Positions 2,189-59,421 of a stretch of 64,000 bases of DNA are shown in pieces. Under the pieces are notes generated by a model, which was given only the letters and a program-made list of their open reading frames with translations, was not told the origin of the DNA and did no database searches. A program made the position numbers and the translations under genes. Source of the stretch: a virus; IMG/VR virus record IMGVR_UViG_3300045988_095964; one strand, written 5' to 3'. How positions within the stretch are numbered: position 1 is the stretch's first letter; each line of letters opens with the position of its first letter.

Positions 2189-3277
2189 ATGAAAAAGGAG
2201 AAACAGATTAAGGCGTATACCCGTCGCACCAAATCCGGTAAGATGGTTGCGGTTAAAGCGCATACCGCAAAATACGATGCCGCTGATATGGCAAAAGAAG
2301 CACTCAAAAAGAAAGGTGCTGGTGACGAGTTTGAACAACGGTACAGGTCTCGGCAGTTTAAGAGTTACGCCGAAGCCGAAAAATACAAGAAGCATCCGGA
2401 TTACGCCGGAATCGAGGTCGGCAGTAACGGATATGTTTCCGTGGTATTCCGTGACAACAAAAAGAAACCTGCGGGTGCTGGTTCTACTGGGAGAACCAAG
2501 AAAGAGACCGACCAAGACAAGGCGGCTAAATTAAAGGAGGTGGTTGCCAAACTTAAAAAAGCAAAGGCGTCTGATACCGCTAAAACTAAGCCTGCTTCAA
2601 AGACTGACAGTACTTCCAAGAAGCAACCTGTCGGTGGTGGGTCTACCGGGCGTATGAAAAAAGATACCACGATTAAGAAAACTGCCCCCACAAAATCTAC
2701 TGATTCCGCAAGTGTATCATCGGCAGATTTTAAGGCTTGGTATCACGATCCGCATTCTGCCACTGGAAAGAAAGTTGCCACTCAATTACGAAAGCAACTG
2801 GGTATCTCTCAGTATAACCGGCTGAATAAGCAGGCTGACGAAAGCTACTCTACCCGTGGGCATTTAGCCATGTACAAGGCCCTCAGTGGTACACCTGCGA
2901 AAACTCCTGCCGGGTCAGGTAGTACGGGGCGTACCAAAAAGACATCCGGAGATTCGGAGAAACTCACCAAATTCAAAGAAGTGGTTTCTAAGCTCAAAAA
3001 GGCAAAGGAGGCTGACATGACCAAGAAGAAACCCGTAGGAGCTGGTAGTACTGGGAGGGTTAAGAAGACTCCGAAAGTAAATGGGGTTCGGGAATATGAC
3101 AGAGGTCCCGGTTTCAAGCGTTCAGGCACTCAAATTGAGTTTGTGAACGGAGAACTCGGTAGTGCAGAAGATTACAGTAAGGCAATTCGTGTCAAAAATC
3201 CAGACAAGGTCCTCAAAAAAGCTATTTCCGAATTTCGGAAAGACATGAGAGCTAAATATGGTTCTCGATGGGAGTAG
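2189..3277 (+). CDS. Lys-rich repeat protein with basic N-terminal hairpin-like motif
   Basis: N-terminus 'KQIKAYTRRTKSGKMVAVKAHTAKYD'. Four copies of 'P[AV]G[AGS]GSTGR[TMV]KK'. Two copies of 'K(E/F)..VV.KLKKAK'. Confidence 0.7.
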   Translation: MKKEKQIKAYTRRTKSGKMVAVKAHTAKYDAADMAKEALKKKGAGDEFEQRYRSRQFKSYAEAEKYKKHPDYAGIEVGSNGYVSVVFRDNKKKPAGAGSTGRTKKETDQDKAAKLKEVVAKLKKAKASDTAKTKPASKTDSTSKKQPVGGGSTGRMKKDTTIKKTAPTKSTDSASVSSADFKAWYHDPHSATGKKVATQLRKQLGISQYNRLNKQADESYSTRGHLAMYKALSGTPAKTPAGSGSTGRTKKTSGDSEKLTKFKEVVSKLKKAKEADMTKKKPVGAGSTGRVKKTPKVNGVREYDRGPGFKRSGTQIEFVNGELGSAEDYSKAIRVKNPDKVLKKAISEFRKDMRAKYGSRWE

Positions 3278-3279
3278 AA

Positions 3280-3311
3280 TTTGCTCGTTAAAATAAATTC
3301 GGTTATATTTG
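3280..3311 (+). promoter_or_regulatory. Bacteroides-type promoter (-33 TTTG, -7 TATATTTG)
   Basis: TTTG at 3280-3283, a 20-nt spacer, then TATATTTG at 3304-3311. Confidence 0.65.
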
Positions 3312-3349
3312 CGGTAGCATCAGCAACGATGCTACCCTTTTTTGTACCT

Positions 3350-3571
3350 ATGCAGATTGTTTCGTCGAATATTCGGACGGCTGACTATGACCGGCGTACA
3401 CGAACGTTAAGCATGACGTTCATAAATCGACCGAACTGGCATTATGAATTTTTCAACGTGCCTATCCGTATATGGACGAACTTTCTGAGAGCTGAAAGTA
3501 AGGGGCAATATTTTTCGACCTATATCCGCGACGGGTATCAATATCGTAGAAGTTTCAGAAGAAAATCGTAG
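3350..3571 (+). CDS. KTSC-domain protein
   Basis: 'SSNIRTADYDRRTRTLSMTF...YEFFNVPIRIWTNFLRAESKGQYFSTYIR' matches the KTSC pattern. The start was chosen downstream of the promoter. Confidence 0.65.
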   Translation: MQIVSSNIRTADYDRRTRTLSMTFINRPNWHYEFFNVPIRIWTNFLRAESKGQYFSTYIRDGYQYRRSFRRKS

Positions 3572-3576
3572 AAGTA

Positions 3577-4116
3577 ATGGCAACTATCACACGGGTATTT
3601 GAGTTTGACGCCGCACACCGGGTAATGAATGAGCGCGTAAAGTGTTTCAACCTACACGGGCATCGTTTTCGGTTGGAGGTAACCTTTGACATTTCCCAAG
3701 AGTATTGGGGTCTTGGTTACCCTATCGACTTTAAGGAACTCAAACGAATCTTCGGCGGATTCATCGACCAATTTTTAGACCACGCCTGTATTCTTAATCC
3801 TCAGGATGACGAGATCATCAACATGTGCGACAAAAATAACTGGCGCATGTGGGTAATGGGTTTCTGCCTGCGGGATATTGACAAGAATCCCTCTGCTGAA
3901 AATCTGGCTGACGAATTATTCGTTTCATTCAAAGAACTGGCGACATTATGTCCCGAAAAGTTTACCATTAACTCGGTTCGGCTGTATGAGACGCCGAATT
4001 GTTGGGTTGATGTCAATTCGTCCGAGACCGAATTAACCGAAGCATTCCGACACTCTCTTACCAAGTGGAGGGAATCTATGGGTAACTTCGAATATGACGC
4101 GAGAAAATGCCAGTAA
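3577..4116 (+). CDS. queD: 6-carboxy-5,6,7,8-tetrahydropterin synthase
   Basis: 'FEFDAAHRV', 'CFNLHGHRFRLEV', 'IDFKELK', 'FLDHACILN' and 'NPSAENLA...LYETP' align with E. coli QueD motifs. Confidence 0.85.
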   Translation: MATITRVFEFDAAHRVMNERVKCFNLHGHRFRLEVTFDISQEYWGLGYPIDFKELKRIFGGFIDQFLDHACILNPQDDEIINMCDKNNWRMWVMGFCLRDIDKNPSAENLADELFVSFKELATLCPEKFTINSVRLYETPNCWVDVNSSETELTEAFRHSLTKWRESMGNFEYDARKCQ

Positions 4117-5756
4117 GAAAATCCATAAAGGAGGAAGGCTTCGTATTTGAAACCAAAGGAAAGAGTGCCGAAAGTATCGACACCTCAAGCGTTGAGGGTA
4201 AGACGGTCTCTTTCGACGCGCATTTCATTACGAACCGTATCATGGAGTTCGGTAAGATTCTTACCGGCATACCTCTGTATGAATATCAGGAAGCCATTGC
4301 GTATCGGATCATTTACTCGGTAATCACTTTCGAGGGTAGCGTTCTAACCGTCCTGCTGTCCCGTCAGTCGGGTAAGTCCGAGACAATGGCTTTTGTCATT
4401 GATACCCTAACCGTCCTGCTTCCGGCGCTTGCTAAAGTACTGCCGGAACTGGAACAGTTCTCCACTGGTTTCCGTGTTGGACTGTTTGCGCCGCAATCGG
4501 ATCAGGTTGTAACGACTTATTCGCGTGCTATGACAAGACTTAATTCGGCCAATGCCGAGATGATTCTCTCTGACCCGGATATTTCGGTATCTATGGAAAG
4601 TAACGTGCGCTTGTCACTGAGTAACGGATCGTTCTTGGCCGGACAAGTCGCCAGTAAGCAATCCAAGATCGAATCCAAGACGTATGACCTTGTAATATGT
4701 GAGGAGGCACAGGATATTGACGACTTTATCGTTCAGAAGTCTATCGAGCCTATGCTTTCGGCTACCGGTGGTACACTGCTTAAAGTAGGAACTACCGGTA
4801 TGACCAAGAACCACTTTTGGTATGAGATTCAGGCGAACCGTAACCATGACCGCCGATTGAAAGACCCACGGTTACGGAATCACTTCGAGTACGCATATAA
4901 GGAGATCATCGCCGCCCGTCGTGAACAGTATGAAAAAGACGGTAAGAAATTCCACCTCAACTATGAAGCGGACGTGCTTCGTAAAAAGGAACGTTGGGGA
5001 GAAGATTCCCAAGCGTTCAAACTTGCGTATGCGTTACAGTGGGATTTGGAGAGCGGTATGCTTATTACCGATAAGGAGTTCAACAATCTGCTGAACCGGA
5101 AACTCGGTTATCAGGACCCCGATATTCGTGATTTTATCGTTGCCGGCCTCGATATTGGTAAGTCTCCTGCGGAGACGGTTCTTACGATTGGCCGTGTATG
5201 GTACGGGGATGACCCGTTCGAAAAACCCTATAAACAGATACTCGCATGGGTATGTTTAGGAGGTCTCGACTACGAAGCCCAACACCATGAAATTCTCAAC
5301 TATATTGTAGAATACAACATTTCTACTATATTTGCAGACTATACGGGTGTTGGTAAAGCTGTCGTTGACAGATTGATTTATGCCTGCGGCGAACATGTCA
5401 ATATCGAACCGTATACGTTTACGGCGCAGAGTAAATCTGACATGTGGTTTAATTTTATCTCGGACATTCAAACCAAGCGTATTATTGTGCCTGCGAACAA
5501 ACAAGTGCGAGGTACGATGGAGTTCCAAAAGTTCGAGGAGCAAATGAAGAACTGTCAGAAGTATTTCAACGGCCCGTACATGGTTTGTGAAAAATCGGAC
5601 GGCTACTTTGATGACATGGTAGACAGTTGTGCGTTGATGTGTTTGGCGGCTAACTCCGACCGGCAGGTTGACAATGAAATGGAAGTTACCGATAATCCGC
5701 TGTACGATGGAATTACTGCGACTATCGGCGCAATAAGGAGAAACTCTTACACTTAG
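4107..5756 (+). CDS. terL: terminase large subunit
   Basis: 549 aa. Walker A-like 'SRQSGKSE' and Walker B 'DLVICEEAQDI'. C-terminal nuclease-sized domain. Lies immediately upstream of the portal gene. Confidence 0.9.
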   Translation: MPVRKSIKEEGFVFETKGKSAESIDTSSVEGKTVSFDAHFITNRIMEFGKILTGIPLYEYQEAIAYRIIYSVITFEGSVLTVLLSRQSGKSETMAFVIDTLTVLLPALAKVLPELEQFSTGFRVGLFAPQSDQVVTTYSRAMTRLNSANAEMILSDPDISVSMESNVRLSLSNGSFLAGQVASKQSKIESKTYDLVICEEAQDIDDFIVQKSIEPMLSATGGTLLKVGTTGMTKNHFWYEIQANRNHDRRLKDPRLRNHFEYAYKEIIAARREQYEKDGKKFHLNYEADVLRKKERWGEDSQAFKLAYALQWDLESGMLITDKEFNNLLNRKLGYQDPDIRDFIVAGLDIGKSPAETVLTIGRVWYGDDPFEKPYKQILAWVCLGGLDYEAQHHEILNYIVEYNISTIFADYTGVGKAVVDRLIYACGEHVNIEPYTFTAQSKSDMWFNFISDIQTKRIIVPANKQVRGTMEFQKFEEQMKNCQKYFNGPYMVCEKSDGYFDDMVDSCALMCLAANSDRQVDNEMEVTDNPLYDGITATIGAIRRNSYT

Positions 5757-5760
5757 TGCT

Positions 5761-7347
5761 ATGGGTATAAACACAGGAGGAATGGACCCTACCGGTATGG
5801 GTAGTTACACGGGTTATCCGGGGTCGAAATATTGGAATGTTGACAGTCGCCCGCTATCGGAAGCTACCAGCGTTCTGCGTTCATTCGTTATTACGAATAT
5901 CGTTCAGGACAGTCAGTGGGAGATTGACCGAATGACGAGGTACTATCTGTTCTGGAAGTTCTACGATGGTCTCCATTGGAAAGACTTCAACGACGGAATG
6001 ATCTCGTTCAACTATGTTCGGGCATTTATCGACAAGGTTAATATGTTCTTGCTCGGTAACGAGGCTTTCTCGTTCCAAGTAAAGAGTTATTACTCGGACC
6101 AAATCGACGATGAAATCGAAAAGATTGCCGAGGAACTGATGATGTACCACTGGGGCAAATCCGATAAATCCCAGTTGGCTTACGAGATTCTGCAAATGGG
6201 AAGTATCACCGGCGACTGTTGGATCGGTGCTTCATGGCAAGGCGGTGAATACGAAAAGTACGTCAAAGTAAAGGTGTTCGATTCCCGGCAGTGTTTTCCC
6301 ATCTTCAAAAACGGCGACTTCAATACATTGGAGCGTTTCTTGGTTCGCCAACCTTTGGACTCCACTAAGGAGCAACCGTACAAACTGTACGTAATACAGT
6401 ACACCGATAAGAGTATTGAGACATGGTATCAAAAAGATGTCACGATTAACGATTCATCGGTGGCTAAGTACGAACACAAGAAATACCCCAATAAATATGG
6501 ATTTATTCCGGTCGTCCATATTAAGAATCGTCCGAATGCCGCCAAATTCTACGGAACTTCTGACGCGAGCGACATTCTTAAACTGAACAAGGTGTACAAC
6601 GAGATGAACCAGCAGATCAAGGCCGTCATCGACTATCACGTAACGCCGACCACGGTAATTACCGGCGCATCCGCTAAGTCGCTGAAAAAAGGTCTTGGTC
6701 AAATTTGGTCTGGCTTACCTGCTGAGGCTAACGTGTTCAATCTTGGTCTGGACGTAGACCTTTCTGCCGCTCTTGAATTTATCAAGGACCTTAAAACGGC
6801 GATGCACGAATTATCCGACGTGCCGGAAAATGCCCTCGGTAAAATTCAGGCCATCAGCAATACTTCCGCCGCCGCGTTGCAGATCACCTATCACCCGTTA
6901 CTGCAACAGGCCAACATTAAGGCTATGACATATGGTGAGGGTATTACCGAGATGAACTCTATGATTCTCCGTATTCTGGAAATCGAGGACCCGAAAAACG
7001 AACGCCTTAAAAAACTGCGTAAGTTGGCTCCCCGGTTCCGTTCGGAGATGCGCATTGTTCCCGTCTTTGCTTATGGTTTCCCGAAAGACCGCATGGATGA
7101 ACTCAATCGTGCCGAAATCGAGCTTCGTCTCAAACTCGGTTCCCGTAAAGAGATCATGGAGCGTATGGGTAAACAGAACATCGACGCGCTTATGGAACAG
7201 ATTGATGATGATACGCTTCACCAAGCGTTACTTCAAGCAAAACTTCAAGAGGCTCTCAGTGGAGTTCCTCCCGAACCGGGTATCAATCCGGATGATGATT
7301 CCGGTGCTATCGAGGAACCCGAATTGAATCCTAATCCTGCCGAATAA
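5761..7347 (+). CDS. portal protein
   Basis: 528 aa, directly after terL. Acidic C-terminal tail. Assigned by position and size. Confidence 0.8.
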   Translation: MGINTGGMDPTGMGSYTGYPGSKYWNVDSRPLSEATSVLRSFVITNIVQDSQWEIDRMTRYYLFWKFYDGLHWKDFNDGMISFNYVRAFIDKVNMFLLGNEAFSFQVKSYYSDQIDDEIEKIAEELMMYHWGKSDKSQLAYEILQMGSITGDCWIGASWQGGEYEKYVKVKVFDSRQCFPIFKNGDFNTLERFLVRQPLDSTKEQPYKLYVIQYTDKSIETWYQKDVTINDSSVAKYEHKKYPNKYGFIPVVHIKNRPNAAKFYGTSDASDILKLNKVYNEMNQQIKAVIDYHVTPTTVITGASAKSLKKGLGQIWSGLPAEANVFNLGLDVDLSAALEFIKDLKTAMHELSDVPENALGKIQAISNTSAAALQITYHPLLQQANIKAMTYGEGITEMNSMILRILEIEDPKNERLKKLRKLAPRFRSEMRIVPVFAYGFPKDRMDELNRAEIELRLKLGSRKEIMERMGKQNIDALMEQIDDDTLHQALLQAKLQEALSGVPPEPGINPDDDSGAIEEPELNPNPAE

Positions 7348-8448: not shown

Positions 8449-9447
8449 ATGTTATCTTTTATTATCGCTATCGTAGCGTTCTCGCTCATCGCTCTGACGG
8501 GTTTTGCTTTCGGTGAAACGACCTCAGCCGGTGCTACTACGGGTGGCTATGTCGCCATTCCGGAAGCAGTGCGTGATTTCTATTCGCGCGAGGTTCTGTT
8601 TCAGGCTCAGCCCCGTCTCCGCTTCCTGCAATTCGCCAAGGTCAAACGTGACCTGCAAGCAATCCGCGGCAAATCCATCGTTTTCGTTAAGTACGGCAAT
8701 CTGAAAGGCGGCGGTTCTCTCGAAGAGACCGATGTTCTCACGCCGGAAGCTATGTCTACGTCCGAGATTGTGGTCCCGGTTAAAGAACAGGGCAACTCGA
8801 CGCAGGTGACCGAATACCTGCTCCGCACCTCTTTACTGGATGTACTCGGCGACGCTTCGAAATTACTTGCCAATAACATGGCTATCGTCCTCGACGGACA
8901 GTTCCGTGACACCGTGCTCAAGACTACCAACGTCGTATACGGCAATGGTAAGAAGTCGCTCGCTACGGTTACGGCTACGGACTATTTCAACACCACTACG
9001 GTTAAGGATGCTGTCGAGACGCTCGCTACGAACAACGCTCCCCGGATCAACGGCGACTATTACGTTTGTATCGCCCACCCGCACCAGCTTCGCACGATGC
9101 GTGACGACCCGAATTGGATCAACGCCAATACTTATATGGGCCGCCGCCAGCTTTACATCGGTGAGGTCGGTATGTACGAAGGTACGATTTTCGTGGAAAC
9201 GACGCAGATGCCCGTACTGGATGCCGCCGGTATTCAGGAAAAGTATGGTAGCGGCGCTACGATTACGACTGGCTACGAGGCCGTGTTCTTCGGTGAAAAT
9301 GCCTACGCTTGGGCTATCGCTCTCGACGTTGAGCTTCGTGACGACGGTGTCGTGGAGCTTGGTCGTAAGCATACGCTGGGCTGGTATGGTATTTGGGGAA
9401 CCGGTATCATCGAGGAGAAAAACATCGTCAAGGCTCTCACCGCGTAA
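8449..9447 (+). CDS. major capsid protein (N4-gp56-like, HK97 fold)
   Basis: 'FYSREVLFQAQPRLRFLQFAKV...GKSIVFVKYGNL' and 'NNAPRINGDYYVCIAHPHQLRTM'. Position after the scaffold gene. Confidence 0.85.
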   Translation: MLSFIIAIVAFSLIALTGFAFGETTSAGATTGGYVAIPEAVRDFYSREVLFQAQPRLRFLQFAKVKRDLQAIRGKSIVFVKYGNLKGGGSLEETDVLTPEAMSTSEIVVPVKEQGNSTQVTEYLLRTSLLDVLGDASKLLANNMAIVLDGQFRDTVLKTTNVVYGNGKKSLATVTATDYFNTTTVKDAVETLATNNAPRINGDYYVCIAHPHQLRTMRDDPNWINANTYMGRRQLYIGEVGMYEGTIFVETTQMPVLDAAGIQEKYGSGATITTGYEAVFFGENAYAWAIALDVELRDDGVVELGRKHTLGWYGIWGTGIIEEKNIVKALTA

Positions 9448-9767: not shown

Positions 9768-10901
9768 ATGCCTACCACTAAGGTAACTTTGAACGAAATT
9801 ATGACAGCGGTTCGGGAGTTAACTTTCGACCGCTTCATAATTCCCGCTTTCGCTATTAAGGCGCAAGAAGGGTATGTCATTGACATTGTGCCCCCGGCGG
9901 TAAATCCGAACCGGGTGACGCGCGTTATAGATGGTGGCGACGCCGGTTCCGACTATACCGAAGGTGAACCCATTCCGGGAGACGTAATAATTGACGGAGG
10001 TGACGCGGCATCTGTATACGCAGACAGTGACTATGATTCGGGGGTCGATATGCTCCCCGGTACATCAGACCCTACGGTGCTTACGAGAGTGACTGCTGAC
10101 GGCGCATTGGCTGTTGAAGCCGGTGGCTATCTCGAAATCCGCAAAAAAGACAGTACCATCAAAGGCGAACGTTTCTATTTCACGGAGTACATTACTCTGA
10201 ATGATCTGATGGACGCCTTTATCGAACGAGGAGTTGTAGTGGCGTACACGCCATATTTCAAAGGTGACGAGCCGTCCATTTCGTTAGTCAAAGTTTCCGG
10301 TCGTAGCTTAGATACGGACCTTACGGTATTCCGTAGGTATTTCTTTTCCGACATCGAGATAAAAGAGATGATCCGTTGGTACTATTTCCGTGTTCTCGAC
10401 ATTAAGAACGTGGAGCTTACCGACGAGACCATAGGTAAACTTATCCGCCCCTCTGAACGCCACATGGCAATTTGGGTATCATATTTTCTCGTCGATAAAC
10501 GACGGGTGTATGAGAACGCCGCAAGTGCAATCGGCCAGTCTTTTACTGATGGCTCTGACTATACTGGCTCTGCTACAAACGGCACTCCCTTATCGACCAC
10601 GGTTCAGATCGGCTCAGTATTCTCAATTACGGAAGACGCTACGCAAGGGTATTTCTATGAAGATTTCAATCGGGTCGGTTCCGACAATGTTTGGGGCGAC
10701 CGTTATTCGTTTTGGTATCGGCTTATGCTGTACCTGCGGAGTTTACTGGAAGATACTTTCGGCGATTACTCACTGCGTAAGGACAACGTTATTCCGGGCT
10801 ATATTCAGCTTACGCGCGAATTGGATTTCAGAGCATACTACGACAGCTATCCATTCAGCCTTTCCCCGCTGTCAAGAGGTATACTCTCAAGAGTTCCGTA
10901 G
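9768..10901 (+). CDS. hypothetical structural protein
   Basis: 377 aa within the head-tail block. Duplicated 'IDGGDA[GA]S.Y' segment. Confidence 0.55.
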   Translation: MPTTKVTLNEIMTAVRELTFDRFIIPAFAIKAQEGYVIDIVPPAVNPNRVTRVIDGGDAGSDYTEGEPIPGDVIIDGGDAASVYADSDYDSGVDMLPGTSDPTVLTRVTADGALAVEAGGYLEIRKKDSTIKGERFYFTEYITLNDLMDAFIERGVVVAYTPYFKGDEPSISLVKVSGRSLDTDLTVFRRYFFSDIEIKEMIRWYYFRVLDIKNVELTDETIGKLIRPSERHMAIWVSYFLVDKRRVYENAASAIGQSFTDGSDYTGSATNGTPLSTTVQIGSVFSITEDATQGYFYEDFNRVGSDNVWGDRYSFWYRLMLYLRSLLEDTFGDYSLRKDNVIPGYIQLTRELDFRAYYDSYPFSLSPLSRGILSRVP

Positions 10902-10904: not shown

Positions 10905-11336
10905 ATGCTTCTTACCAAAGGTAAATTCCAACAATACCGGGCTATATTTTATAACAAATTGAAGCAGACCCCGTATAAGATTTCACTCGAAATCGTTACG
11001 GTAGAGGACCCGACCTCGGAAGGGTTTTCAATCGAAGAATTTGTCGGTAGCTCTCCAAGAAGTTCCCGGTTTTACGAGTTTCAGGCCCTTTATGAGCGTG
11101 AAATTCCGTTGCGTACCCGTGAAAAATACGGGCTTCCCAAAGAAGTAAACGGGATTGTGTATCTGTCGCCGCTCCAGCTTGTCCCTGTACTGGGAACGTT
11201 TAAGTTGGACTGGAACAAGACCAAAGTACACTTTGCCGGACATACGCAAGTTGTTGAGAAGATCGAATATTTGGAGCCATTGTATGACAGTTGCGTAGGT
11301 ATTCAGATTTTTGTCAAAGACGACCTCAAAGCATAA
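10905..11336 (+). CDS. hypothetical structural protein
   Basis: 143 aa. TAATG junction with the next gene. Confidence 0.5.
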   Translation: MLLTKGKFQQYRAIFYNKLKQTPYKISLEIVTVEDPTSEGFSIEEFVGSSPRSSRFYEFQALYEREIPLRTREKYGLPKEVNGIVYLSPLQLVPVLGTFKLDWNKTKVHFAGHTQVVEKIEYLEPLYDSCVGIQIFVKDDLKA

Positions 11337-11641
11337 TGACAACAGTAAAAACGCACAAGCGAAAGGGGCGTAATAAGGTGTCCGTTGTACGGAAGCATGA
11401 CCGAAAGGATAAAGTTTCCGCTCTGCGTGGCGCCAAGGACTTTTCTGAAAAACAGCGTGACAAACTCTCGTCGAAAGGGGAGGCTCTCCCCGACGGTTCT
11501 TATCCGATTGCAAGTAAGCGTGATTTGGCCAATGCTATTTCGTCGTATGGCCGCGCTAAGAATCCCGAAATAGTCAAACGCTGGATTGTAAAACGTGCGA
11601 AAGCCCTCGGTGCGAGTGAGATGATCCCTAAAAACTGGTAG
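11336..11641 (+). CDS. basic-hairpin-motif protein
   Basis: N-terminus 'VKTHKRKGRNKVSVVRKHDRK'. C-terminus 'LPDGSYPI...DLANAISSYGRAKNPEIVKRWIVKRAKALG'. Confidence 0.6.
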   Translation: MTTVKTHKRKGRNKVSVVRKHDRKDKVSALRGAKDFSEKQRDKLSSKGEALPDGSYPIASKRDLANAISSYGRAKNPEIVKRWIVKRAKALGASEMIPKNW

Positions 11642-11860: not shown

Positions 11861-12019
11861 ATGAAAGACGGAAACGGTAAAGCAAAAATCTGCCCCAAAA
11901 CGGGGCAACCCGAAATGGTAAAGTGGGGAATCGGTGACGGTACGCCGCCATTGACTACGGACCCGGAAAATCCCATCAAGCCGTTCGCCACGTATGTCGA
12001 GGAAGATGACCGGCGATGA
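11861..12019 (+). CDS. hypothetical small protein (52 aa, below track cutoff)
   Basis: ATG at 11861. ATGA overlap with the next gene at 12016-12019. Confidence 0.3.
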   Translation: MKDGNGKAKICPKTGQPEMVKWGIGDGTPPLTTDPENPIKPFATYVEEDDRR

Positions 12020-12510
12020 AGATTCCTGCGTTCCCTGCTGTTAGGCTGGCTTCTATGGTTCCTCGAAATATGCGGAAAGTTCCCAAGTCATATTTGAAGA
12101 ATCCGAAGTTCAAAAAGCCGAAAGTCTCCGCATTCAAAAAGGATATGGAGAATCTCGGTGCTGAAATTGCAGAGGAGTTTAAGGAAACGGTCATTCGCAA
12201 CATCAAGACAAACGCCTATGGGTTTCATCTGTCAGAGTCCACTTTAAGACAGAAGTCGGGGGAAACCCCGCTTATTGACAGTGGCGTGATGCTGGATGCC
12301 ATCTATCGGGAGGGTACTTTTGTTTCGGTGGAAGACACTCCGCGCACGGATAGTCCTCTTACCAATTTGGAGCTCGCCAAAGTACACGAATACGGTACAA
12401 AGGATAAACATATTCCTGCGCGTCCAGTATGGCGAAACACTTTCCGGGACTACAAACCAAAGGCCAAAAAACGAATTCAGAAATTCTTTAAGACGAACGG
12501 TAATGGGTAA
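12016..12510 (+). CDS. head-tail joining protein (HK97 gp10-like)
   Basis: 'PLIDSGVMLDAI' and 'HIPARPVW' resemble gp10-family motifs. Confidence 0.5.
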   Translation: MKIPAFPAVRLASMVPRNMRKVPKSYLKNPKFKKPKVSAFKKDMENLGAEIAEEFKETVIRNIKTNAYGFHLSESTLRQKSGETPLIDSGVMLDAIYREGTFVSVEDTPRTDSPLTNLELAKVHEYGTKDKHIPARPVWRNTFRDYKPKAKKRIQKFFKTNGNG

Positions 12511-13012
12511 CGTATCGGTCAAGTCCTACAAACGCAGGAGCACGAAGGGTAAAGTTTATACCGTTCGTGCGTATTCACGTGGTGGGGGTAAGAAACCAAA
12601 CATGGGAAATATGGAGATCAGTCGCGGTGCTGAAAAAGTTTCCGACGCCGAGATTCAGAAGTACTACGACAAACAACAAGAAGAAATGAAGGAGTTTGTC
12701 CGAAAACTTCAAGGGGTTGCCAAAGAGTACGGTGTCAAAGGTGGTACTGAGGCTCTCCTGCAAACTCCTGCCGCCCGTAAGAATCCCATTGCCGCGGCTA
12801 AACAGTCTGCACGCATAGAGACTGACCGGATTATGAAAGAGGTCAATCCTACGCTTCATACGGAGGCTCCTGCCCGACGTGCACCGCGTGGCGGTCTGTT
12901 ATCCCGGTTGAAATCCATGTACACGGAGGAACTCGCTAAGGCGTCCAAGAAATATGGAACTTACGACGAGTTTTTTGGTGCTCGCAAGTCTCTCAAAAAG
13001 AAACGAAAGTGA
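12503..13012 (+). CDS. basic-hairpin-motif protein
   Basis: ATG at 12503. N-terminus 'VSVKSYKRRSTKGKVYTVRAYSRGGGKK'. Confidence 0.55.
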   Translation: MGNVSVKSYKRRSTKGKVYTVRAYSRGGGKKPNMGNMEISRGAEKVSDAEIQKYYDKQQEEMKEFVRKLQGVAKEYGVKGGTEALLQTPAARKNPIAAAKQSARIETDRIMKEVNPTLHTEAPARRAPRGGLLSRLKSMYTEELAKASKKYGTYDEFFGARKSLKKKRK

Positions 13013-17980: not shown

Positions 17981-17992
17981 TTCTCTCTCGTT

Positions 17993-18337
17993 ATGAAAAT
18001 GGAAAAACAAGTAAAAGCACACACTCGCCGGACAAAGTCCGGTAAGAGTGTTGTGGTTAAGGCCCACTCTGCTAAATACGATTCTGGAGGTGGCCTCGCC
18101 AAGAAAAACATTACCTCTAAGAGAGGCTCTGGAAAAGAGTTGATGTCTAAGGCTATCTCTATGGCTTCTTTAGAACGTAAGGCTCAAAAAGCCGAACGTG
18201 ACTACTATGCCGGCAAGATAGATTCCAACACTTACGATAAGATACAGAAATCCGTAGATTCCGCTATCGGGTACCTGAGAAGTACCCCCAAAAAGACTTC
18301 TCGGAGTACTGTTAAAAAAGGTGCTGGTCGTAGGTAA
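17993..18337 (+). CDS. basic-hairpin-motif protein
   Basis: The N-terminus 'MKMEKQVKAHTRRTKSGKSVVVKAHSAKYD' shares about 24/30 residues with the 2189 ORF. Confidence 0.6.
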   Translation: MKMEKQVKAHTRRTKSGKSVVVKAHSAKYDSGGGLAKKNITSKRGSGKELMSKAISMASLERKAQKAERDYYAGKIDSNTYDKIQKSVDSAIGYLRSTPKKTSRSTVKKGAGRR

Positions 18338-18363
18338 ATATTTACTTAACACTATATAGAATT

Positions 18364-19248
18364 ATGGACAGTTTAATTTTTGACTTACCCATCGGTTTAC
18401 AGACCGCATCGGGTGACGCTATCAAAACCGTAGAATTACTCCGTACCAATGGTGTAGCAGAGAAAGTTTTCGTAACCAAACTCTCGGAACGTCCCTACAC
18501 GTGGCAGGGTAACGTTCTGTCGGTAGGTATCAAAAGTATCGGCGATATTGAAATCGGTGCGGAGGTGCGCCGCCAGTATCTCAAAGATAATGCGGTCACC
18601 ATCCCCACTGAGATCAAGAATCTTACGTTGGCGGATGTGAATACACTCCTGCTGGAGATTCACCGGCGTCTGTGGCAGAATTTCATTCCGCGTCAGGAAG
18701 TCGTCTGCAAGTATTGCGGCAAGCGGTTACGTGCGGACATCGACCTCGACCGTATCGACTTCTTCGAGGAGACCAAGGAGGCTATGGAGGAGTTACCCGA
18801 CTACACCAAGATCGTGGTCGATCTCTCTGACGGTTTCACGCCGCCCGCACTCGGTAAAGTCACCGAAAAACCGGAATATGCGTCGATTCTGTTAACGAAT
18901 TACAACCGCATGACGTTCCGCCCGCCCTTACTGCGTGACGCCATCAAAAACGAGCGATTCTTTACGGATTCGGTCGGTTTCTGGCGGCGTATCGCCAAGG
19001 ACTGCTTGGTGCAGATTGATTCGGTGGTTGACGGTAAGGTCGTCGATACGCTTCCCGTGGAGTTCCACACGTTCTACGGCATGAAACTCTACGACGAATA
19101 TCTGTGCGGACGGGACCTCAAAAAGATTCGTTCCGCCCTTACGGAATACCTGCCTACCCTCCCGTTCGCATACTATGACAGATGCGGATGTGACGAGCAA
19201 AGAGAGATACCTTACGCAATGGAGGCATCCTCTTTTTTCTCGGAATGA
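18364..19248 (+). CDS. hypothetical tail-assembly-region protein
   Basis: 294 aa between the tube and tape-measure genes. 'CKYCGKRL' motif. Confidence 0.5.
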   Translation: MDSLIFDLPIGLQTASGDAIKTVELLRTNGVAEKVFVTKLSERPYTWQGNVLSVGIKSIGDIEIGAEVRRQYLKDNAVTIPTEIKNLTLADVNTLLLEIHRRLWQNFIPRQEVVCKYCGKRLRADIDLDRIDFFEETKEAMEELPDYTKIVVDLSDGFTPPALGKVTEKPEYASILLTNYNRMTFRPPLLRDAIKNERFFTDSVGFWRRIAKDCLVQIDSVVDGKVVDTLPVEFHTFYGMKLYDEYLCGRDLKKIRSALTEYLPTLPFAYYDRCGCDEQREIPYAMEASSFFSE

Positions 19249-55002: not shown

Positions 55003-56028
55003 ATGCCGCACAAGAAAATTTCTACGGGGCTATTGAAGCGCAAACGTGTTTCCAAAGAACTGGTTCGACGAAACAATGTCGTTGTTACCAAGCCAACCTC
55101 CAAAACTTGCTGGGTTCCTATACCTAATTATGAGGGTATCTATGAAATCTCTGATAGTGGAAAGATACGTTCTGTGGAAAGAGATGTTGAGTACACTACT
55201 GGAAAAACTTGTCATTTACGTAGCCAATTATTAAGACCATCTATTGATAAAGATGGTTATTTAATAACACATCTTTATCGTGGGAATAAGACTGAAACTT
55301 ACAAGGTTCATCGTTTAGTAGCAACAGCCTTTATCCCTAATCCTAATGGGTACCCCGATGTAAATCATAAAGACGAGGATAAATCGAATAACGTAGTGTC
55401 TAATTTAGAGTGGTGTACTCGAAGATACAATGTTACTTATGGTAGTCGAGCCGACAAAGCGTCTGAAAAATTAACCAGATTTTTATATCAACGTTTTTCT
55501 TTGTCCGGAGAGTACATAGATACTCTTTCCCACAAAGAGCTTAAAAGTATGGGGTTCAATTTGGGTACTATATGGAGGTGTTCTATTGGTAAAGCAAATG
55601 TGTCCTCTGGGTTTCGATGGCATCGTATTCCTGTTGAGGATGCTCCTAAATTTAGGAATCCTCGTATTCGTAACGATGGCTCTGTGATTAATAGAGCAAC
55701 ATCTTCCGGAACGTGGAAAAGTTTCGAGCGAGTAGTCGCTAAATTTTTCGGGACCAAACGTGTTCCGTTATCCGGTAGTAACAGTGGACATAATACCAAT
55801 AGCGATTCCCTGCATCCTACATTGTATATTGAGTGTAAGGTTCGTCAGAAGTCCGCTGTATGGTCGTTGTTCAAAGATACCGAAGTAAAGGCCAAGTTCG
55901 AAAAGAAGATTCCGGTTGTCGCCATCAAACAAAAAGGCGAACAAGGCTACCTACTGGTTATCCGACCCGAAGATTTGGGTAAAATTCATACGATACAACA
56001 ATCTGTAACAGAAGCCGATGGGGTATAA
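55003..56028 (+). CDS. HNH homing endonuclease (NUMOD4 + HNH + NUMOD1-like) fused to a PD-(D/E)XK domain
   Basis: 'IPNYEGIYEISDSGKIRS', 'HRLVATAFIPNPNGYPDVNHKDEDKSNNVVSNLEW' and 'GFRWHRI'. The C-terminal 'SFERVVAKFFGTKRVPLSGSNSG..SDS..YIECK' is paralogous to the 47964 ORF. Confidence 0.85.
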   Translation: MPHKKISTGLLKRKRVSKELVRRNNVVVTKPTSKTCWVPIPNYEGIYEISDSGKIRSVERDVEYTTGKTCHLRSQLLRPSIDKDGYLITHLYRGNKTETYKVHRLVATAFIPNPNGYPDVNHKDEDKSNNVVSNLEWCTRRYNVTYGSRADKASEKLTRFLYQRFSLSGEYIDTLSHKELKSMGFNLGTIWRCSIGKANVSSGFRWHRIPVEDAPKFRNPRIRNDGSVINRATSSGTWKSFERVVAKFFGTKRVPLSGSNSGHNTNSDSLHPTLYIECKVRQKSAVWSLFKDTEVKAKFEKKIPVVAIKQKGEQGYLLVIRPEDLGKIHTIQQSVTEADGV

Positions 56029-56750: not shown

Positions 56751-57479
56751 ATGGAAAAGAAGATTTTATTGTTTTCAGGTGGTTTTGATTCCATGTTGCA
56801 GGAGTGGTTGATTCGTCCGGATTTGCTCCTGTACGTAGATATGAAAACCTCCTACGCCGAACGCGAGATCGAAGCTCTCAAACGTTTACCTCCTTATTAC
56901 GTAGATCGGTTAAAGGTGATCGAGTTCCCTCTTGGTGAATACGAACGGGAGAACAAATACCTGCCCTACCGGAATCTTATTTTGGGGACGCTTGCCATGC
57001 AGTATGGGCAACACGTTTATTTCGGTTTCAACGAAGCTGACAACGCTCCCGATAAGGACGACGTATTTATTCGCAGACTGACTACTTTGTTCCGGCATCT
57101 GAACAAACACTGCATCGGCGACATGGGGTGGGAGAACACGCATTTCAGTTTCTCGGCGCCGTACAAACACCTAACCAAAACCGAGATGGTGGCGGAGTGT
57201 CTGAAACAAGGTATGCCCGTTGACTGGATTCAGAAAATCCGGTCCTGCTATGATTCTGCAAGTGAGATCGGTTGCGGTGTTTGCCGTCCGTGTCTTAACC
57301 GAGGGATCGCGTTAATCAATAACGGGATTTACGAACCGGAGTTGTTCGATACGCCTATCGACGAGGTTCGGTTGTGGAATCTTATGAAAGAAACCGCTTC
57401 CTACGACGGTGGCGATTATTCTGCGAAATACTATGCCGACATTAAAAAGGCGCACCGATTATTACGACAAAGAGGTTAA
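56751..57479 (+). CDS. queC: 7-cyano-7-deazaguanine synthase-like PP-loop ATPase
   Basis: 'KILLFSGGFDS', 'LPYRNLIL', 'FSAPY..LTKTEM' and 'SCYDSASEIGCGVCRPCLNR'. Confidence 0.8.
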   Translation: MEKKILLFSGGFDSMLQEWLIRPDLLLYVDMKTSYAEREIEALKRLPPYYVDRLKVIEFPLGEYERENKYLPYRNLILGTLAMQYGQHVYFGFNEADNAPDKDDVFIRRLTTLFRHLNKHCIGDMGWENTHFSFSAPYKHLTKTEMVAECLKQGMPVDWIQKIRSCYDSASEIGCGVCRPCLNRGIALINNGIYEPELFDTPIDEVRLWNLMKETASYDGGDYSAKYYADIKKAHRLLRQRG

Positions 57480-58371
57480 TCGAGCGGTTCTTTTTTTCTC
57501 CGCTTCCTCTACCGGCGACACTGAACAGTTGTTAGAGTTCGGTATTCGAGAGATTCTTGTGTCTTACTTCTATATGCGCAAGAGTTTACCGTATTACGAT
57601 GGAGTACTCGACAAACTGCACAAGGAGAAAGGTCTTTTTATGACGGACTCCGGGGCGTTCTCTTTTATGGCGTCCGGTGTCATCAAAGATGAGATGTATA
57701 CTGAAAAGTATTGGTTGCCTTACTTGGAGGAGTACGTTGACTGGCTGTGGAAGCATAAGGATAAAATCTTTGTCGCCGCGAATCTCGATCTGGACAAAAT
57801 TGTGGGTCGTGAAGTGGTCGATAAATGGAACCGAAAGTATTTCGAACCTCTCGAAAAGGCTGGTTTGCAGATCGTTTATGTGGCGCACGAAAACGACACT
57901 GACGATAAGCACGCTATAAAACATTTTGGACAGTACTGTAAACGATATAAGTATGTCGGGATTAACCAGTCTCAGAAAGAGTACGCTTCACATTTTTATC
58001 AAATGGCCAAGCATCATAATGTCCGTGTACACGGTTTTGCTTGGACTGAGATGAATATTGTAAAGCACTACCCATTCTTTTCTCTGGACTCTACGACGTG
58101 GCTTGGAGGTGTTCGGTATGGAACCACTTATGACTACGACGGTAAGAATTTTCGCACCATCGACTACAAGCATAAGTACATAAGAAAATCCCGGCGTTTG
58201 AAATATCGAAAAATTGGCGTATCTTTGGATGACGTTCTTGGTGAAGAAAAACGAAAACCGATTAACCGCATGAACTTGCTCGGTTGGATGGGCTTCCGTA
58301 AAGAGTTTCTCCGCATGGCGAATCTTAAACTCCACAACAGAACTGTTGCACACTATACACGAAAACCATGA
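57433..58371 (+). CDS. dpdA: DpdA-like DNA-guanine transglycosylase (TGT superfamily)
   Basis: 'REILVSYFY' and 'LFMTDSGAFSF'. Lies between queC and queE. The start is uncertain (GTG 57409 or ATG 57433). Confidence 0.6.
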   Translation: MPTLKRRTDYYDKEVNRAVLFFSASSTGDTEQLLEFGIREILVSYFYMRKSLPYYDGVLDKLHKEKGLFMTDSGAFSFMASGVIKDEMYTEKYWLPYLEEYVDWLWKHKDKIFVAANLDLDKIVGREVVDKWNRKYFEPLEKAGLQIVYVAHENDTDDKHAIKHFGQYCKRYKYVGINQSQKEYASHFYQMAKHHNVRVHGFAWTEMNIVKHYPFFSLDSTTWLGGVRYGTTYDYDGKNFRTIDYKHKYIRKSRRLKYRKIGVSLDDVLGEEKRKPINRMNLLGWMGFRKEFLRMANLKLHNRTVAHYTRKP

Positions 58372-59120
58372 GCGAAGACGTAACAAAAAAGCGTATTGCC
58401 GAAATTCGTGAGGCCGGTGAAGACTTTGACAAACTCAGAAAATGTCTTTGTCCGTTCTTTCAGAAAGGTGATTGCCCCGACTGTATCAGTTGCTTATGCG
58501 AGGATGACGATGTTCTCGAATGTAAGAAGTACTTTTTGGAACACATCAAAATCCATCCTATGGATGTTTGGTCTCCGGAGTTTGACGTCGTTAAGGTTCA
58601 ATCCCGTGAGAAAGTTTCCATTAACGAGACCATCGGTATCGGAATTAACTGTGACACTTGTTACATGTATGACAAGTGCCCTTTATACAAGATGGGGTAT
58701 GCTTGCGGGATCGACTGGGGTGACGGAAGACCCTCCACTCCCGAAGCATACTACGAGTTCTTGGTAAACACTCAGTATGAGCGTGTTAAGCGTGCATCGG
58801 TGTTTGAGAAAATCGACGGAGGTGTTCCCGACGCTAACCTTTCCGGTGAAATGGATCGGTTGTCCGGTTATATTCTCAGTCGGTTGGATTTGAACCGGGA
58901 ACGTCTGTCGGTGAATATCGAAGCTACTGGTTCGGCTTCCGGTAGTAGTGGCGGTGGTGGTATACTGGCCAAGTTATTCGGTGGCGGTGTGAGTGCTCCC
59001 GCAACGAAAGAGATTCCTGCCGAAACCGAAACCCGTAAGGATTTGATTACTGAGGCCGAAGTAGTAACTGAACCTGTAAAGGTTCCAAGACGACGAAGAA
59101 ATGTCGGTGACAGTGAGTAA
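58368..59120 (+). CDS. Cys-rich hypothetical protein in the deazaguanine operon
   Basis: ATGA coupling to dpdA. Cys clusters 'CLCPFFQKGDCPDCISCLCEDDDVLEC' and 'CDTCYMYDKCPLYKMGYAC'. Confidence 0.55.
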   Translation: MSEDVTKKRIAEIREAGEDFDKLRKCLCPFFQKGDCPDCISCLCEDDDVLECKKYFLEHIKIHPMDVWSPEFDVVKVQSREKVSINETIGIGINCDTCYMYDKCPLYKMGYACGIDWGDGRPSTPEAYYEFLVNTQYERVKRASVFEKIDGGVPDANLSGEMDRLSGYILSRLDLNRERLSVNIEATGSASGSSGGGGILAKLFGGGVSAPATKEIPAETETRKDLITEAEVVTEPVKVPRRRRNVGDSE

Positions 59121-59421
59121 ACATTTGCGAAAGGGTAAGAACAAGGTTTCTGCCGTGCGCCGTCACTACCGGAAAGGTAGTACCCATAAGACGGTTAAAG
59201 GCCGAAAGTACGTTTTCGTTGATGGCTTCTGGAAACACGACGATTACCCGAATGCTCCCAAAGCAGGTTGGTCTTATGAGCATCTTGTAAGGGAGCGTGC
59301 AAAATTACTCAATGACCTGCAAGACGGTCTTGAGAATCGTGATATTTTACCCCCGCGCAAATATGGGTTACTATCACGACGTATTCGTAAGATAAACCGA
59401 ATACTTAAAAATAAAAAGTAA
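59101..59421 (+). CDS. basic-hairpin-motif protein
   Basis: N-terminus 'VSKHLRKGKNKVSAVRRHYRKGS'. Confidence 0.5.
   Translation: MSVTVSKHLRKGKNKVSAVRRHYRKGSTHKTVKGRKYVFVDGFWKHDDYPNAPKAGWSYEHLVRERAKLLNDLQDGLENRDILPPRKYGLLSRRIRKINRILKNKK

What the first reader, a model, noticed from the sequence alone, without database searches (positions are those of the whole stretch)
2189..59421. Five dispersed ORFs share a basic N-terminal motif (V-K-x-H/Y-x-R-R/K-x-K-x-G-K-x-x-x-V-K/R-x-H/Y)
Seen at the extreme N-termini of five ORFs:
- 2189: 'KQIKAYTRRTKSGKMVAVKAHTAKYD'
- 17993: 'KQVKAHTRRTKSGKSVVVKAHSAKYD'
- 12503: 'VSVKSYKRRSTKGKVYTVRAYSRGG'
- 11336: 'VKTHKRKGRNKVSVVRKHDRK'
- 59101: 'VSKHLRKGKNKVSAVRRHYRK'

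The first two share about 24 of 30 residues, yet their DNA differs at many synonymous positions. The peptide, not the DNA, is therefore conserved. Downstream sequences are unrelated.

Three members sit in the head/tail morphogenesis block, one lies upstream of the terminase and one is inside the deazaguanine operon.

Inference: a portable basic beta-hairpin-like module. It could be a DNA-binding arm of packaged internal proteins, or a capsid-targeting signal. I cannot assign it to a named family.
Basis: partly seen in the sequence, partly recalled or inferred. Interest (0 to 1): 0.7.

Follow-up and report, generated by a model that had tools for sequence, protein, structure and literature searches.

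The report
Portable basic beta-ribbon tag on phage proteins
Five otherwise unrelated small, very basic proteins of this gut (Bacteroides-type) phage start with the same ~25-residue basic beta-ribbon, an uncatalogued module also found between the domains of giant injected "polyvalent" phage proteins and in secreted bacterial proteins, so it is probably a general attachment handle (most likely for DNA) whose function is still untested.

Summary
All five ORFs (starts 2189, 11336, 12503, 17993, 59101) begin with V-K-x-[HY]-x-R-[RK]-x(3-4)-K-x-[VI]-x-V-[KR]-x-[HY]. No other copy occurs in the six frames. A profile built only from sequences outside the window ranks the five as the top five of 1767 segments. 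Composition-preserving shuffles do not reproduce the scores.

The motif is a portable module. In 45 related phage loci it heads at least 8 unrelated C-terminal families. It is always on the coding strand and 2-7 residues after the start. Some carrier genes are presence/absence cassettes. One C-terminal domain also exists alone, without the motif.

A profile search of 1.84 billion proteins finds 677 clusters. These include polyvalent proteins (InPase, ART, ParB-SNF2, RadC) with 2-5 internal copies, and Sec-exported bacterial proteins. Pfam, NCBIfam, PHROGs and PDB have no model for it.

AlphaFold predicts a confident two-stranded beta-ribbon. All five carriers have pI 10.1-10.8. One is syntenic with the DpdA DNA-modification genes.

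The best reading is a generic polyanion (DNA) handle on accessory or cargo proteins. A T4-like capsid-targeting signal remains a serious rival. Function is inferred, not shown.

The parts
2189..3277 (+). p2189, 362 aa, pI 10.1. Motif at nt 2207-2275 (IKAYTRRTKSGKMVAVKAHTAKY), then a helix, then helical segments separated by disordered Lys-rich linkers. It belongs to the large 'AKYD-type' class with hypervariable C-termini.
2468..3058 (+). Four copies of a second linear motif, P[AV]GxGSTGR flanked by KK, inside p2189 at nt 2468-2494, 2627-2653, 2906-2932 and 3032-3058. All lie in linkers that AlphaFold predicts as disordered.
11336..11641 (+). p11336, 101 aa, pI 10.7. Motif at nt 11345-11410 (VKTHKRKGRNKVSVVRKHDRKD). 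The C-terminal 'LPDGSYPI...GRAKN...KRAKALG' domain also exists as stand-alone 69-71 aa proteins.
12503..13012 (+). p12503, 169 aa, pI 10.2. Motif at nt 12518-12586 (VKSYKRRSTKGKVYTVRAYSRGG). It starts inside the end of the Neck1/tail-completion-like gene 12016-12510.
17993..18337 (+). p17993, 114 aa, pI 10.5. Motif at nt 18011-18079 (VKAHTRRTKSGKSVVVKAHSAKY). It lies between the gene after the sheath gene and the baseplate-hub-like gene.
17981..18346 (.). 366-bp presence/absence cassette holding p17993. It is absent from locus L013, whose flanks are 98.8-98.9% identical.
59101..59421 (+). p59101, 106 aa, pI 10.8. Motif at nt 59113-59178 (VSKHLRKGKNKVSAVRRHYRKG), followed by further beta strands and a helical hairpin. 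Its start overlaps the DpdA-C-like gene 58368-59120. It is a conserved member of the QueC-DpdA-...-QueE cluster.

Best explanation
The motif is a real, autonomous module of about 25 residues. It is a strongly basic, amphipathic two-stranded beta-ribbon with consensus V-K-x-[HY]-x-R-[RK]-T-K-S-G-K-x-[VI]-x-V-[KR]-x-[HY]-x-[RA]-K.

In this Bacteroides-type myovirus it has been grafted onto the N-terminus of at least five small accessory proteins. These proteins are uniformly basic and otherwise unrelated.

The most likely mode of action (inferred, not shown) is a sequence-independent clamp for a polyanion, most probably double-stranded DNA. One face of the ribbon carries K, H/Y, R, K/R and H/Y. 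The other face carries V, V, V/I and small residues.

The tag would tether whatever is attached to it to the phage genome. For the members in the structural gene block, and for the polyvalent proteins that carry 2-5 copies between their domains, this would keep cargo with the DNA that is packaged and injected. For the member inside the deazaguanine cluster, it would bring a helical partner domain to the DNA on which DpdA acts.

Shown: the module exists, is portable, is predicted as a ribbon, and sits on basic proteins in these contexts. Inferred: the ligand, and the packaging or injection consequence.
For: Module real and homologous across classes.

Portable:
- At least 8 C-terminal classes carry it.
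- The same slot holds the same N-terminus with a different tail.
- A tail domain exists alone without it.
- Carrier genes are gain/loss cassettes.

Predicted as a ribbon at high confidence in two unrelated carriers: p59101 overall pLDDT 90, p2189 residues 1-30 pLDDT 85-96.

All five carriers are among the most basic proteins of the genome, pI 10.1-10.8 against a median of 6.2. Their C-terminal parts are basic too.

p59101 is a conserved, start-overlapping member of the QueC-DpdA-QueE DNA-modification cluster, down to 55% identity.

The same module occurs in phage lineages with no detectable similarity to this one. It also occurs in 677 clusters overall. Among these, it sits between the domains of polyvalent proteins carrying InPase, ART-PolyVal, SAM lyase, LPD1-ParB-SNF2 and RadC. 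PMC5512222 argues that this protein class is packaged and injected with DNA. A partner common to such different systems is more likely a generic molecule than a lineage-specific capsid protein.
Against: There is no direct evidence of nucleic-acid binding.

No sequence match to any solved DNA-binding ribbon was found, and no structural match for the beta part.

The module also occurs after Sec signal peptides, and at the C-terminus of Excalibur/SH3b lipoproteins of bacteria.

Proteins bound to DNA are not known to pass the portal during packaging, so DNA binding alone does not explain encapsidation.

No virion proteomics exists for any carrier. The cultured relative BS162P1 has only 'hypothetical protein' annotations and no paper in the library.
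Confidence: 0.4

Rival explanations
1. Capsid-targeting signal in the manner of the T4 internal-protein CTS. The shared N-terminal ribbon docks on scaffold, portal or the inner capsid surface during procapsid assembly, so that diverse accessory proteins are encapsidated and later injected.
For: The motif is strictly N-terminal in this clade.

Carriers are small, basic, variable and dispensable, and most are encoded among head/neck/tail genes. [quoted passage not shown]

The 61 'AKYD-type' proteins share about 50 N-terminal residues followed by hypervariable tails, as in trafficking-domain/cargo architectures.

The motif is present in polyvalent proteins thought to be packaged.
Against: The same motif, nearly unchanged, occurs in phages with no detectable similarity to this one and in exported cellular proteins. 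That is hard to reconcile with a lineage-specific capsid partner.

It also occurs internally, 2-5 times per protein.

One member sits in a DNA-modification operon rather than in the structural block.

There is no resemblance to the T4 CTS, and no conserved protease site follows the motif.
Confidence: 0.25
2. Envelope-directed cationic hairpin. The ribbon binds anionic cell-envelope polymers or membranes (LPS, capsule, wall polymers). It anchors exported bacterial proteins to the surface, and in phages it helps injected or virion proteins engage or cross the envelope.
For: Bacterial versions are Sec-exported or lipoproteins. They are combined with the wall-binding SH3b domain or with the Excalibur domain. 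The ribbon has an amphipathic basic/aromatic face.
Against: p59101 belongs to a cytoplasmic DNA-modification cluster. Phage copies prefer His where bacterial copies prefer Tyr, which suggests the ligands may differ. There is no hydrophobic membrane-inserting segment.
Confidence: 0.1
3. Processing mark. The module flags the boundaries at which polyproteins are cut, so that each mature fragment starts with it. The single-domain window proteins are the 'already cut' form.
For: In polyvalent proteins the copies sit at domain boundaries, with a conserved upstream hydrophobic-x-K-[SA]. N-terminal copies in such proteins keep that upstream piece, for example MILIKAHVKQH. PMC5512222 predicts proteolytic processing of polyvalent proteins.
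Against: 25-30 conserved residues predicted as a stable ribbon is far more than a cleavage site needs. No protease co-occurs detectably. The tandem copies in small secreted proteins and the C-terminal copies do not fit.
Confidence: 0.08
4. Structural beta-augmentation or oligomerisation element. The hydrophobic face pairs with another ribbon or with a strand of a virion protein, and the carriers are minor decoration, cement or neck proteins. A special case is that p2189 is the undetected small terminase, with the ribbon as its DNA-recognition arm.
For: One face of the ribbon is V/V/V-I. The genes lie next to the head and neck genes. No TerS was found upstream of TerL.
Against: Carriers are gained and lost between 99%-identical phages and have hypervariable or disordered tails. 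That is unlike stoichiometric structural proteins or a terminase subunit. The AKYD-type occurs as tandem paralogues in two relatives, BS162P1 and L042.
Confidence: 0.07
5. Chance resemblance of Lys/Arg-rich N-termini.
For: Leave-group-out HMMs within the window alone fail to link the two pairs.
Against: and the 677 clusters with E<=1e-3 in 1.84e9 proteins.
Confidence: 0.01

Closest known systems
Capsid targeting sequence (CTS) of phage T4 internal proteins IPI/IPII/IPIII and Alt
   Same: A short shared N-terminal peptide sits on several otherwise unrelated, small, mostly basic, dispensable and rapidly diversifying phage proteins (PMC3012670).
   Different: From my own knowledge, the T4 CTS is about 10 residues, not basic, and is removed by the gp21 prohead protease at a Leu/Ile-x-Glu site. 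Here the tag is a 25-residue basic beta-ribbon. No conserved cleavage site follows it. It also occurs internally, C-terminally and in cellular exported proteins. Encapsidation is untested.
Polyvalent proteins of phages and conjugative elements (Iyer, Burroughs, Anand, de Souza, Aravind 2017; PMC5512222)
   Same: The best-scoring matches to the motif profile are such proteins. They carry InPase, ART-PolyVal, SAM lyase, LPD1, ParB, SNF2 and RadC domains, with 2-5 copies of the motif between the domains.
   Different: The window proteins are small and have no recognisable enzymatic domain. Text searches of the paper for hairpin, linker, basic, cleavage site and LPD found no description of this short motif among its 131 domains.
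Basic two-stranded beta-ribbon nucleic-acid binders (HU/IHF arms, beta-hairpin extensions of ribosomal proteins, BIV Tat ARM)
   Same: Predicted shape and chemistry match: a long twisted antiparallel ribbon with a Lys/Arg/aromatic face.
   Different: There is no sequence relationship, and binding is untested. The resemblance is recalled from general knowledge, not measured.
MuF-type N-terminal packaging domain fused to polymorphic toxin domains in temperate phages (Jamet et al. 2017, from my own knowledge)
   Same: The architecture has a conserved N-terminal 'delivery' part and a hypervariable C-terminal cargo, as in the 61 AKYD-type proteins.
   Different: MuF is a globular domain of about 100+ residues with a Pfam model. 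The window proteins match no such model.
KxYKxGKxW N-terminal signal motif of Gram-positive serine-rich glycoproteins
   Same: A superficially similar K-x-Y-K...G-K string at an N-terminus.
   Different: The spacing differs, and no hydrophobic signal-peptide core follows it. NCBIfam, which holds that model, gives no hit. Rejected.

Membership tests
T4-type capsid targeting sequence | Shared peptide at the extreme N-terminus of several unrelated phage proteins | tested here: met
   Five ORFs in the window carry it. In relatives it lies 2-7 residues after Met in 123 ORFs.
T4-type capsid targeting sequence | Followed by a prohead-protease site and removed on maturation | tested here: inconclusive
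   No conserved site follows the motif in the position-wise profile. No prohead protease was identified. Removal needs proteomics.
T4-type capsid targeting sequence | Carriers are present inside virions and the tag is sufficient for encapsidation | not testable with these tools
   No virion proteome exists for the window phage or for BS162P1.
Polyvalent proteins (PMC5512222) | Two or more domains of disparate biochemical activity in one polypeptide | tested here: not met
   No Pfam domain was found in any of the five, nor, apart from two isolated matches in single members (Na_Ca_ex_C, OmpA), in the 81 single-copy relatives.
Polyvalent proteins (PMC5512222) | Shares modules with polyvalent proteins | tested here: met
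   The motif occurs 2-5 times in the InPase/ART/ParB-SNF2/RadC proteins P0047, P0049 and P0052.
Any curated protein family (Pfam-A, NCBIfam, PHROGs) | Match of the motif region to a curated model | tested here: not met
   Searches give no model covering the motif. The only hit is a weak one to phrog_16160 for the C-terminal domain of p11336.
Solved DNA-binding beta-ribbon proteins (HU/IHF and others) | Sequence or fold similarity to a solved structure | tested here: not met
   The profile against PDB sequences gives 0 hits at E<=10. Foldseek against PDB and BFVD gives nothing for the beta part.
Solved DNA-binding beta-ribbon proteins (HU/IHF and others) | Binds nucleic acid | not testable with these tools
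   Needs EMSA, or AF3 with DNA.
Small terminase subunit (for p2189 only) | Gene next to TerL; N-terminal DNA-binding part plus an oligomerisation core; single conserved copy | tested here: inconclusive
   It lies upstream of TerL, and no other TerS was found. However, its length is hypervariable (83-631 aa), it occurs as tandem paralogues, and its linkers are disordered.

The most novel reading that the evidence does not exclude
The ribbon is a universal 'ride-along' tag. It is used by many unrelated phage lineages and mobile elements, from small single-cargo proteins to 2000-residue polyvalent proteins. By clamping each cargo unit onto the element's own DNA, it loads effector or anti-defence cargo so that the cargo enters the next host together with the genome. 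If so, it would be a transferable tag for putting arbitrary proteins into phage particles.
Probability: 0.2. Interest if true: 0.8.

Novelty: new variant of a known kind. Interest (0 to 1): 0.6.

Why it matters
How phages choose which non-structural proteins to carry into the next cell is understood for very few models (T4 CTS, P1 Dar, N4 vRNAP). For polyvalent proteins it has only been predicted.

This motif is short, recognisable and widespread: 677 clusters at 50% identity. It links three groups:
- small basic accessory proteins of abundant human-gut Bacteroides phages;
- polyvalent proteins;
- exported bacterial proteins.

That gives a concrete handle for testing. A peptide-sized module can be checked for DNA binding and for sufficiency in encapsidation. 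A cultured carrier phage is available (BS162P1 on Bacteroides salyersiae).

The motif also allows about 700 protein clusters now labelled 'hypothetical' to be grouped. It flags hot spots where cargo cassettes are exchanged between near-identical phages.

Tried and rejected
- Within-window leave-group-out HMMs could not link the two pairs. This was solved only by bringing in relatives.
With a 44-aa alignment it returned only 45-77 aa proteins, apparently because of a length effect. The exhaustive representative search was needed.
- Pfam, PHROGs and NCBIfam gave no family for the motif on the five proteins and on outside carriers.
- PDB sequence searches with the profile and with p11336 and p59101 gave nothing, or a spurious designed-repeat hit.
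- Foldseek of the p59101 model against PDB and BFVD matched only the generic helical hairpin at E around 1.
- Literature searches found nothing specific. I tried BS162P1 and six motif strings, and I read PMC5512222 for any mention of the motif.
- tblastn of the polyvalent-type consensus against 50,697 phage records gave only BS162P1 and E~0.2 hits in cluster-K mycobacteriophages, which I do not trust.
- Contexts of the polyvalent proteins P0047 and P0050 lie on contigs too short to define the phage type.
- The KxYKxGKxW signal motif was considered and rejected on spacing, the lack of a hydrophobic core and no NCBIfam hit.
- A codon-level or mRNA explanation for the conservation was rejected, because 13 of 20 differing codons are synonymous and the motif also occurs internally.
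- A resemblance of the second motif (KKPAGAGSTGR) to the bL27 N-terminal tail is from memory only and was not pursued.

Full report
OBSERVATION

Each lies at the N-terminus of a + strand ORF:
- 2189-3277 (362 aa)
- 11336-11641 (101 aa)
- 12503-13012 (169 aa; the ATG at 12503 is the sensible start, not the upstream 12296)
- 17993-18337 (114 aa)
- 59101-59421 (106 aa)

A regex for the pattern finds only these five sites in all six reading frames. Over the first 31 codons, 2189 and 17993 share 24 residues at only 73% nucleotide identity. There are 13 synonymous and 7 non-synonymous codon differences.

IS IT MORE THAN CHANCE?

From the window alone this could not be shown. HMMs trained on one pair do not retrieve the other. 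Outside sequences settle it.

The only similar record in the phage collection, MT835482.1 from a human faecal sample, has five motif ORFs of its own, one at a new position. I then fetched 43 viral-contig loci, using the 377-aa protein 9768-10901 as bait. They carry 2-4 motif ORFs per 20 kb, all on the coding strand and all 2-7 residues after a Met. They include bridging sequences such as MQVKSYKRRTKSGKVITVKGHTRKD.

The non-circular tests are these:
- An HMM built from non-window N-termini, excluding the 11336/59101 class, ranks the five window ORFs as the top five of 1767 six-frame segments. E-values are 1.4e-15, 4.8e-15, 1e-12, 2.8e-4 and 6.8e-3, and the next hit is 0.73.
- A profile-profile comparison of the two classes gives 92% probability, P 5.7e-7.
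- HMMs from two carrier families that do not occur in the window still find 2189, 17993 and 12503 at E 1e-5 to 5e-7.
- Shuffling each N-terminus 2000 times with its composition kept reaches the observed score 0, 0, 0, 0 and 1 times.
- In 983 kb of window plus loci there are 149 hits on the coding strand and none on the other.

CONTEXT

PHROG matches place the genes as follows:
- QueD-like gene: 3577-4116
- TerL: 4107-5756
- Portal: 5761-7347
- Major head protein: 8449-9447
- Neck1/tail-completion protein: 12016-12510
- Sheath-like protein: 15815-17515
- Weak baseplate-hub hit: 18364-19248
- QueC-like gene: 56751-57479
- DpdA-like protein split over 57433-58371 and 58368-59120
- QueE-like gene: 59872-60570

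So three carriers lie in the head-neck-tail block, one lies upstream of TerL, and one lies inside the deazaguanine DNA-modification cluster, as stated.

A cultured relative exists. It is Bacteroides phage BS162P1 (OP172706.1, host B. salyersiae), with five motif ORFs, all annotated as hypothetical. The paper library holds nothing on it.

WHAT THE MODULE IS

Portability is clear:
- After removing the first 35 residues, the motif ORFs of the window and loci fall into at least 8 unrelated classes.
- At the syntenic slot of p11336, another phage has a 73-aa protein with the same N-terminus but a Cys-rich tail.
- The C-terminal 'LPDGS[YF]PI...GRAKN...KRAKALG' domain of p11336 exists as stand-alone 69-71 aa proteins without the motif. 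It also forms the C-terminus of a 473-aa protein with two motif copies.
- p17993 is a 366-bp cassette (17981-18346) that is absent from a phage whose flanks are about 99% identical.
- The slot downstream of the 377-aa protein is likewise exchanged between near-identical phages.

A 33-position profile was run against 1.84 billion representative proteins. It finds 677 clusters at E<=1e-3 and 25 at E<=1e-10. Of the best 141:
- 90 have one N-terminal copy. They are 56-631 aa long with hypervariable tails, and 61 of them share about 50 N-terminal residues: the ribbon plus a helix AKYDAAEKAKEAAKKKGAGxELE.
- 48 have 2-5 copies.

The multi-copy set contains polyvalent proteins in the sense of PMC5512222. 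Examples are InPase + ART-PolyVal + SAM lyase, LPD1 + ParB + SNF2 helicase, and InPase + RadC. The motif sits between their domains, typically as hydrophobic-x-K-[SA]-x-VKAHxRRTKSGKVVxVKEHxDxRxKK.

A third population is cellular:
- Small proteins with a Sec-type signal peptide and 2-3 tandem VKGYTRKTKSGKVVTVKGYTRK units. One lies on a chromosomal contig next to dnaN and an ECF sigma factor, and others are in Armatimonadota genomes.
- Bacteroidota lipoprotein-like proteins with Excalibur or SH3b domains that end in ...STYVKGHYRKTKSGKTVYVKPHTRKRN.

No model for the motif exists in Pfam-A, NCBIfam or PHROGs. No PDB chain matches the profile. Text searches of the polyvalent-protein paper and of the library for motif strings found no description.

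STRUCTURE

Two AlphaFold models were made:
- p59101, with 65 homologues, has mean pLDDT 90.3. Its motif forms strands 2-5/8-12 and 15-19/22-25, which is a long two-stranded ribbon with the turn at K13-N14. Three further strands and a helical hairpin follow.
- p2189, with 80 relatives, has residues 1-30 at pLDDT 85-96, with strands 3-7/10-13 and 19-22/25-29 and the turn at TKSGK. A helix follows, then helical pieces separated by disordered linkers.

From the alternation of conserved positions, one face of the ribbon carries K, H/Y, R, K/R and H/Y. The other face carries V, V, V/I and small residues. This is an inference from the sequence. Foldseek finds no solved or predicted structure that matches the beta part.

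HOW IT MOST LIKELY WORKS

Several facts bear on this:
- All five carriers are among the most basic proteins of the genome (pI 10.1-10.8 against a median of 6.2), and their tails are basic too.
- p59101 belongs to a family of 67 clusters that all keep the motif.
- Even at 55% identity, p59101 keeps its place between the DpdA-like genes and QueE, with its start overlapping the upstream gene. This fits a DNA-directed role.
- The motif is almost unchanged in phage lineages with no detectable similarity to this one, in polyvalent proteins, and in cellular exported proteins. That argues for a generic ligand rather than a lineage-specific capsid partner.

I therefore favour a sequence-independent polyanion clamp, most probably for DNA. 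It would tether accessory or cargo proteins to the genome (confidence 0.4).

This reading is not shown. The exported bacterial versions cannot be binding cytoplasmic DNA. DNA binding by itself also does not explain how a protein gets into a procapsid.

The main rival (0.25) is a capsid-targeting signal of the T4 kind. It fits several points very well: the strict N-terminal position in this clade, the small basic dispensable carriers, and the conserved-head/variable-tail architecture. PMC3012670 describes the T4 internal proteins as a highly diverse set with only a conserved CTS. The two readings are not mutually exclusive.

The minor rivals are an envelope-polyanion binder, a processing mark at polyprotein boundaries, and a beta-augmentation or oligomerisation element. 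The last includes the possibility that p2189 is the undetected small terminase. Chance is excluded.

COMPARISON AND NOVELTY

The module works like a CTS or a trafficking domain in its distribution, and like HU/IHF-type ribbons in its predicted chemistry. It is a member of neither, because the sequence-level tests fail. The window proteins are also not polyvalent proteins themselves, since they have no second domain. I rate it a new variant of a known kind: an undescribed, widespread portable module whose class (short basic attachment or targeting tags on phage accessory proteins) is known.

OTHER OBSERVATIONS

p2189 carries four copies of a second linear motif, P[AV]GxGSTGR flanked by Lys pairs, in its disordered linkers. 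Related forms (RPVGSGTNGPxPKKK) occur in 19 of 269 motif proteins. That is 31 instances against 0.11 expected from shuffling. They include 45-58 aa proteins that consist of nothing but the ribbon and this motif. Its role is unknown; it could be a binding peptide or a cleavage site.

VERDICT

The 'portable beta-hairpin' description is supported. The function is unresolved between DNA/polyanion handle and capsid targeting. Interest is 0.6.

Noticed in passing
window 2468-2494, 2627-2653, 2906-2932, 3032-3058 (inside p2189): A second conserved linear motif, KK-P-[AV]-G-x-G-S-T-G-R-x-KK, occurs four times in disordered linkers. Related forms (RPVGSGTNGPxPKKK) occur in 19 of 269 ribbon-bearing proteins, 31 instances against 0.11 expected by shuffling. 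They include 45-58 aa proteins made only of the ribbon plus this motif (P0017, P0021, P0025). Its function is unknown. It loosely recalls the bL27 N-terminal tail, but that is from memory and untested.
   Followed up: partly
window 17981-18346: The whole p17993 gene is a 366-bp indel relative to IMGVR_UViG_3300045988_080609 (L013), whose flanks are 98.8-98.9% identical. It is therefore a dispensable cassette between the gene downstream of the sheath and the baseplate-hub-like gene.
   Followed up: yes
L014 10970-11622 vs L023; L039 10975-11545 vs L040 (slot equivalent to window ~10905-11336): The region just downstream of the 377-aa protein homologue is a replacement hot spot. A ribbon-bearing gene is present in one phage and replaced by about 180-200 bp of other sequence in a 95-99% identical one.
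   Followed up: partly
L046 (OP172706.1) 19594-19995: GenBank CDS BS162P1_00030 starts at the ATG at 19645, which cuts the motif in half. A GTG at 19594 gives V/M-EEVQIKPYKRRGKNGSMVSVSGYTRRVGRKG, so the start is probably mis-called. L035 has the same Met-less form.
   Followed up: partly
window 57433-58371 and 58368-59120: The DpdA/tRNA-guanine-transglycosylase-like protein (phrog_887) is encoded as two overlapping ORFs covering the N- and C-terminal parts of the profile. The same split (328 aa + 248 aa) is seen in L051/L052. The QueD-like gene sits apart, next to TerL (3577-4116).
   Followed up: no
window 11423-11638 (C-terminal domain of p11336): A small domain, 'ALPDGS[YF]PI..DL.NAI.SYGRAK....VK.WI.KRAKALGA..LP..W', exists as free-standing 69-71 aa proteins, as the tail of p11336-type proteins, and at the C-terminus of a 473-aa protein with two ribbons (P0066). 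It has no Pfam model, only a weak hit to phrog_16160.
   Followed up: partly
L056, L063 (Armatimonadota); L057, L059, L062, L064-L066 (Bacteroidota); L058 (proteobacterial MAG): The same ribbon occurs in cellular genomes in three forms. It is tandem after a signal peptide. It is at the extreme C-terminus of Excalibur- or SH3b-containing lipoprotein-like proteins. It is internal in 961-1764 aa proteins. Bacterial copies favour Tyr where phage copies favour His.
   Followed up: partly
window 9768-10901: A conserved 377-aa protein lies directly after the major head protein gene region and has no PHROG, Pfam or NCBIfam match. It worked well as bait for the whole phage clade (52-100% identity in 43 loci).
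   Followed up: no
window 1-4107: No small terminase subunit was recognised upstream of TerL. The candidates by position and charge are 1643-2062 (139 aa, pI 10.6), 3329-3571 (80 aa, pI 10.9) and p2189 itself.
   Followed up: partly
window 55003-56028: A 341-aa ORF combines an HNH endonuclease (residues ~30-215) with a weak RusA-like resolvase match (residues 240-318).
   Followed up: no
L054 4473-6095 and C-termini of P0050, P0053, P0062, P0064: In an unrelated phage lineage, the gene after a 5-ribbon polyvalent protein again starts with a divergent ribbon (MRVLIKSKLSKAAVHVKDSYRHLKSGAMVHVAAYSKE). Several ribbon-rich proteins end in a conserved YKLSEY[DE]L.EYG[LF] tail of unknown meaning.
   Followed up: no
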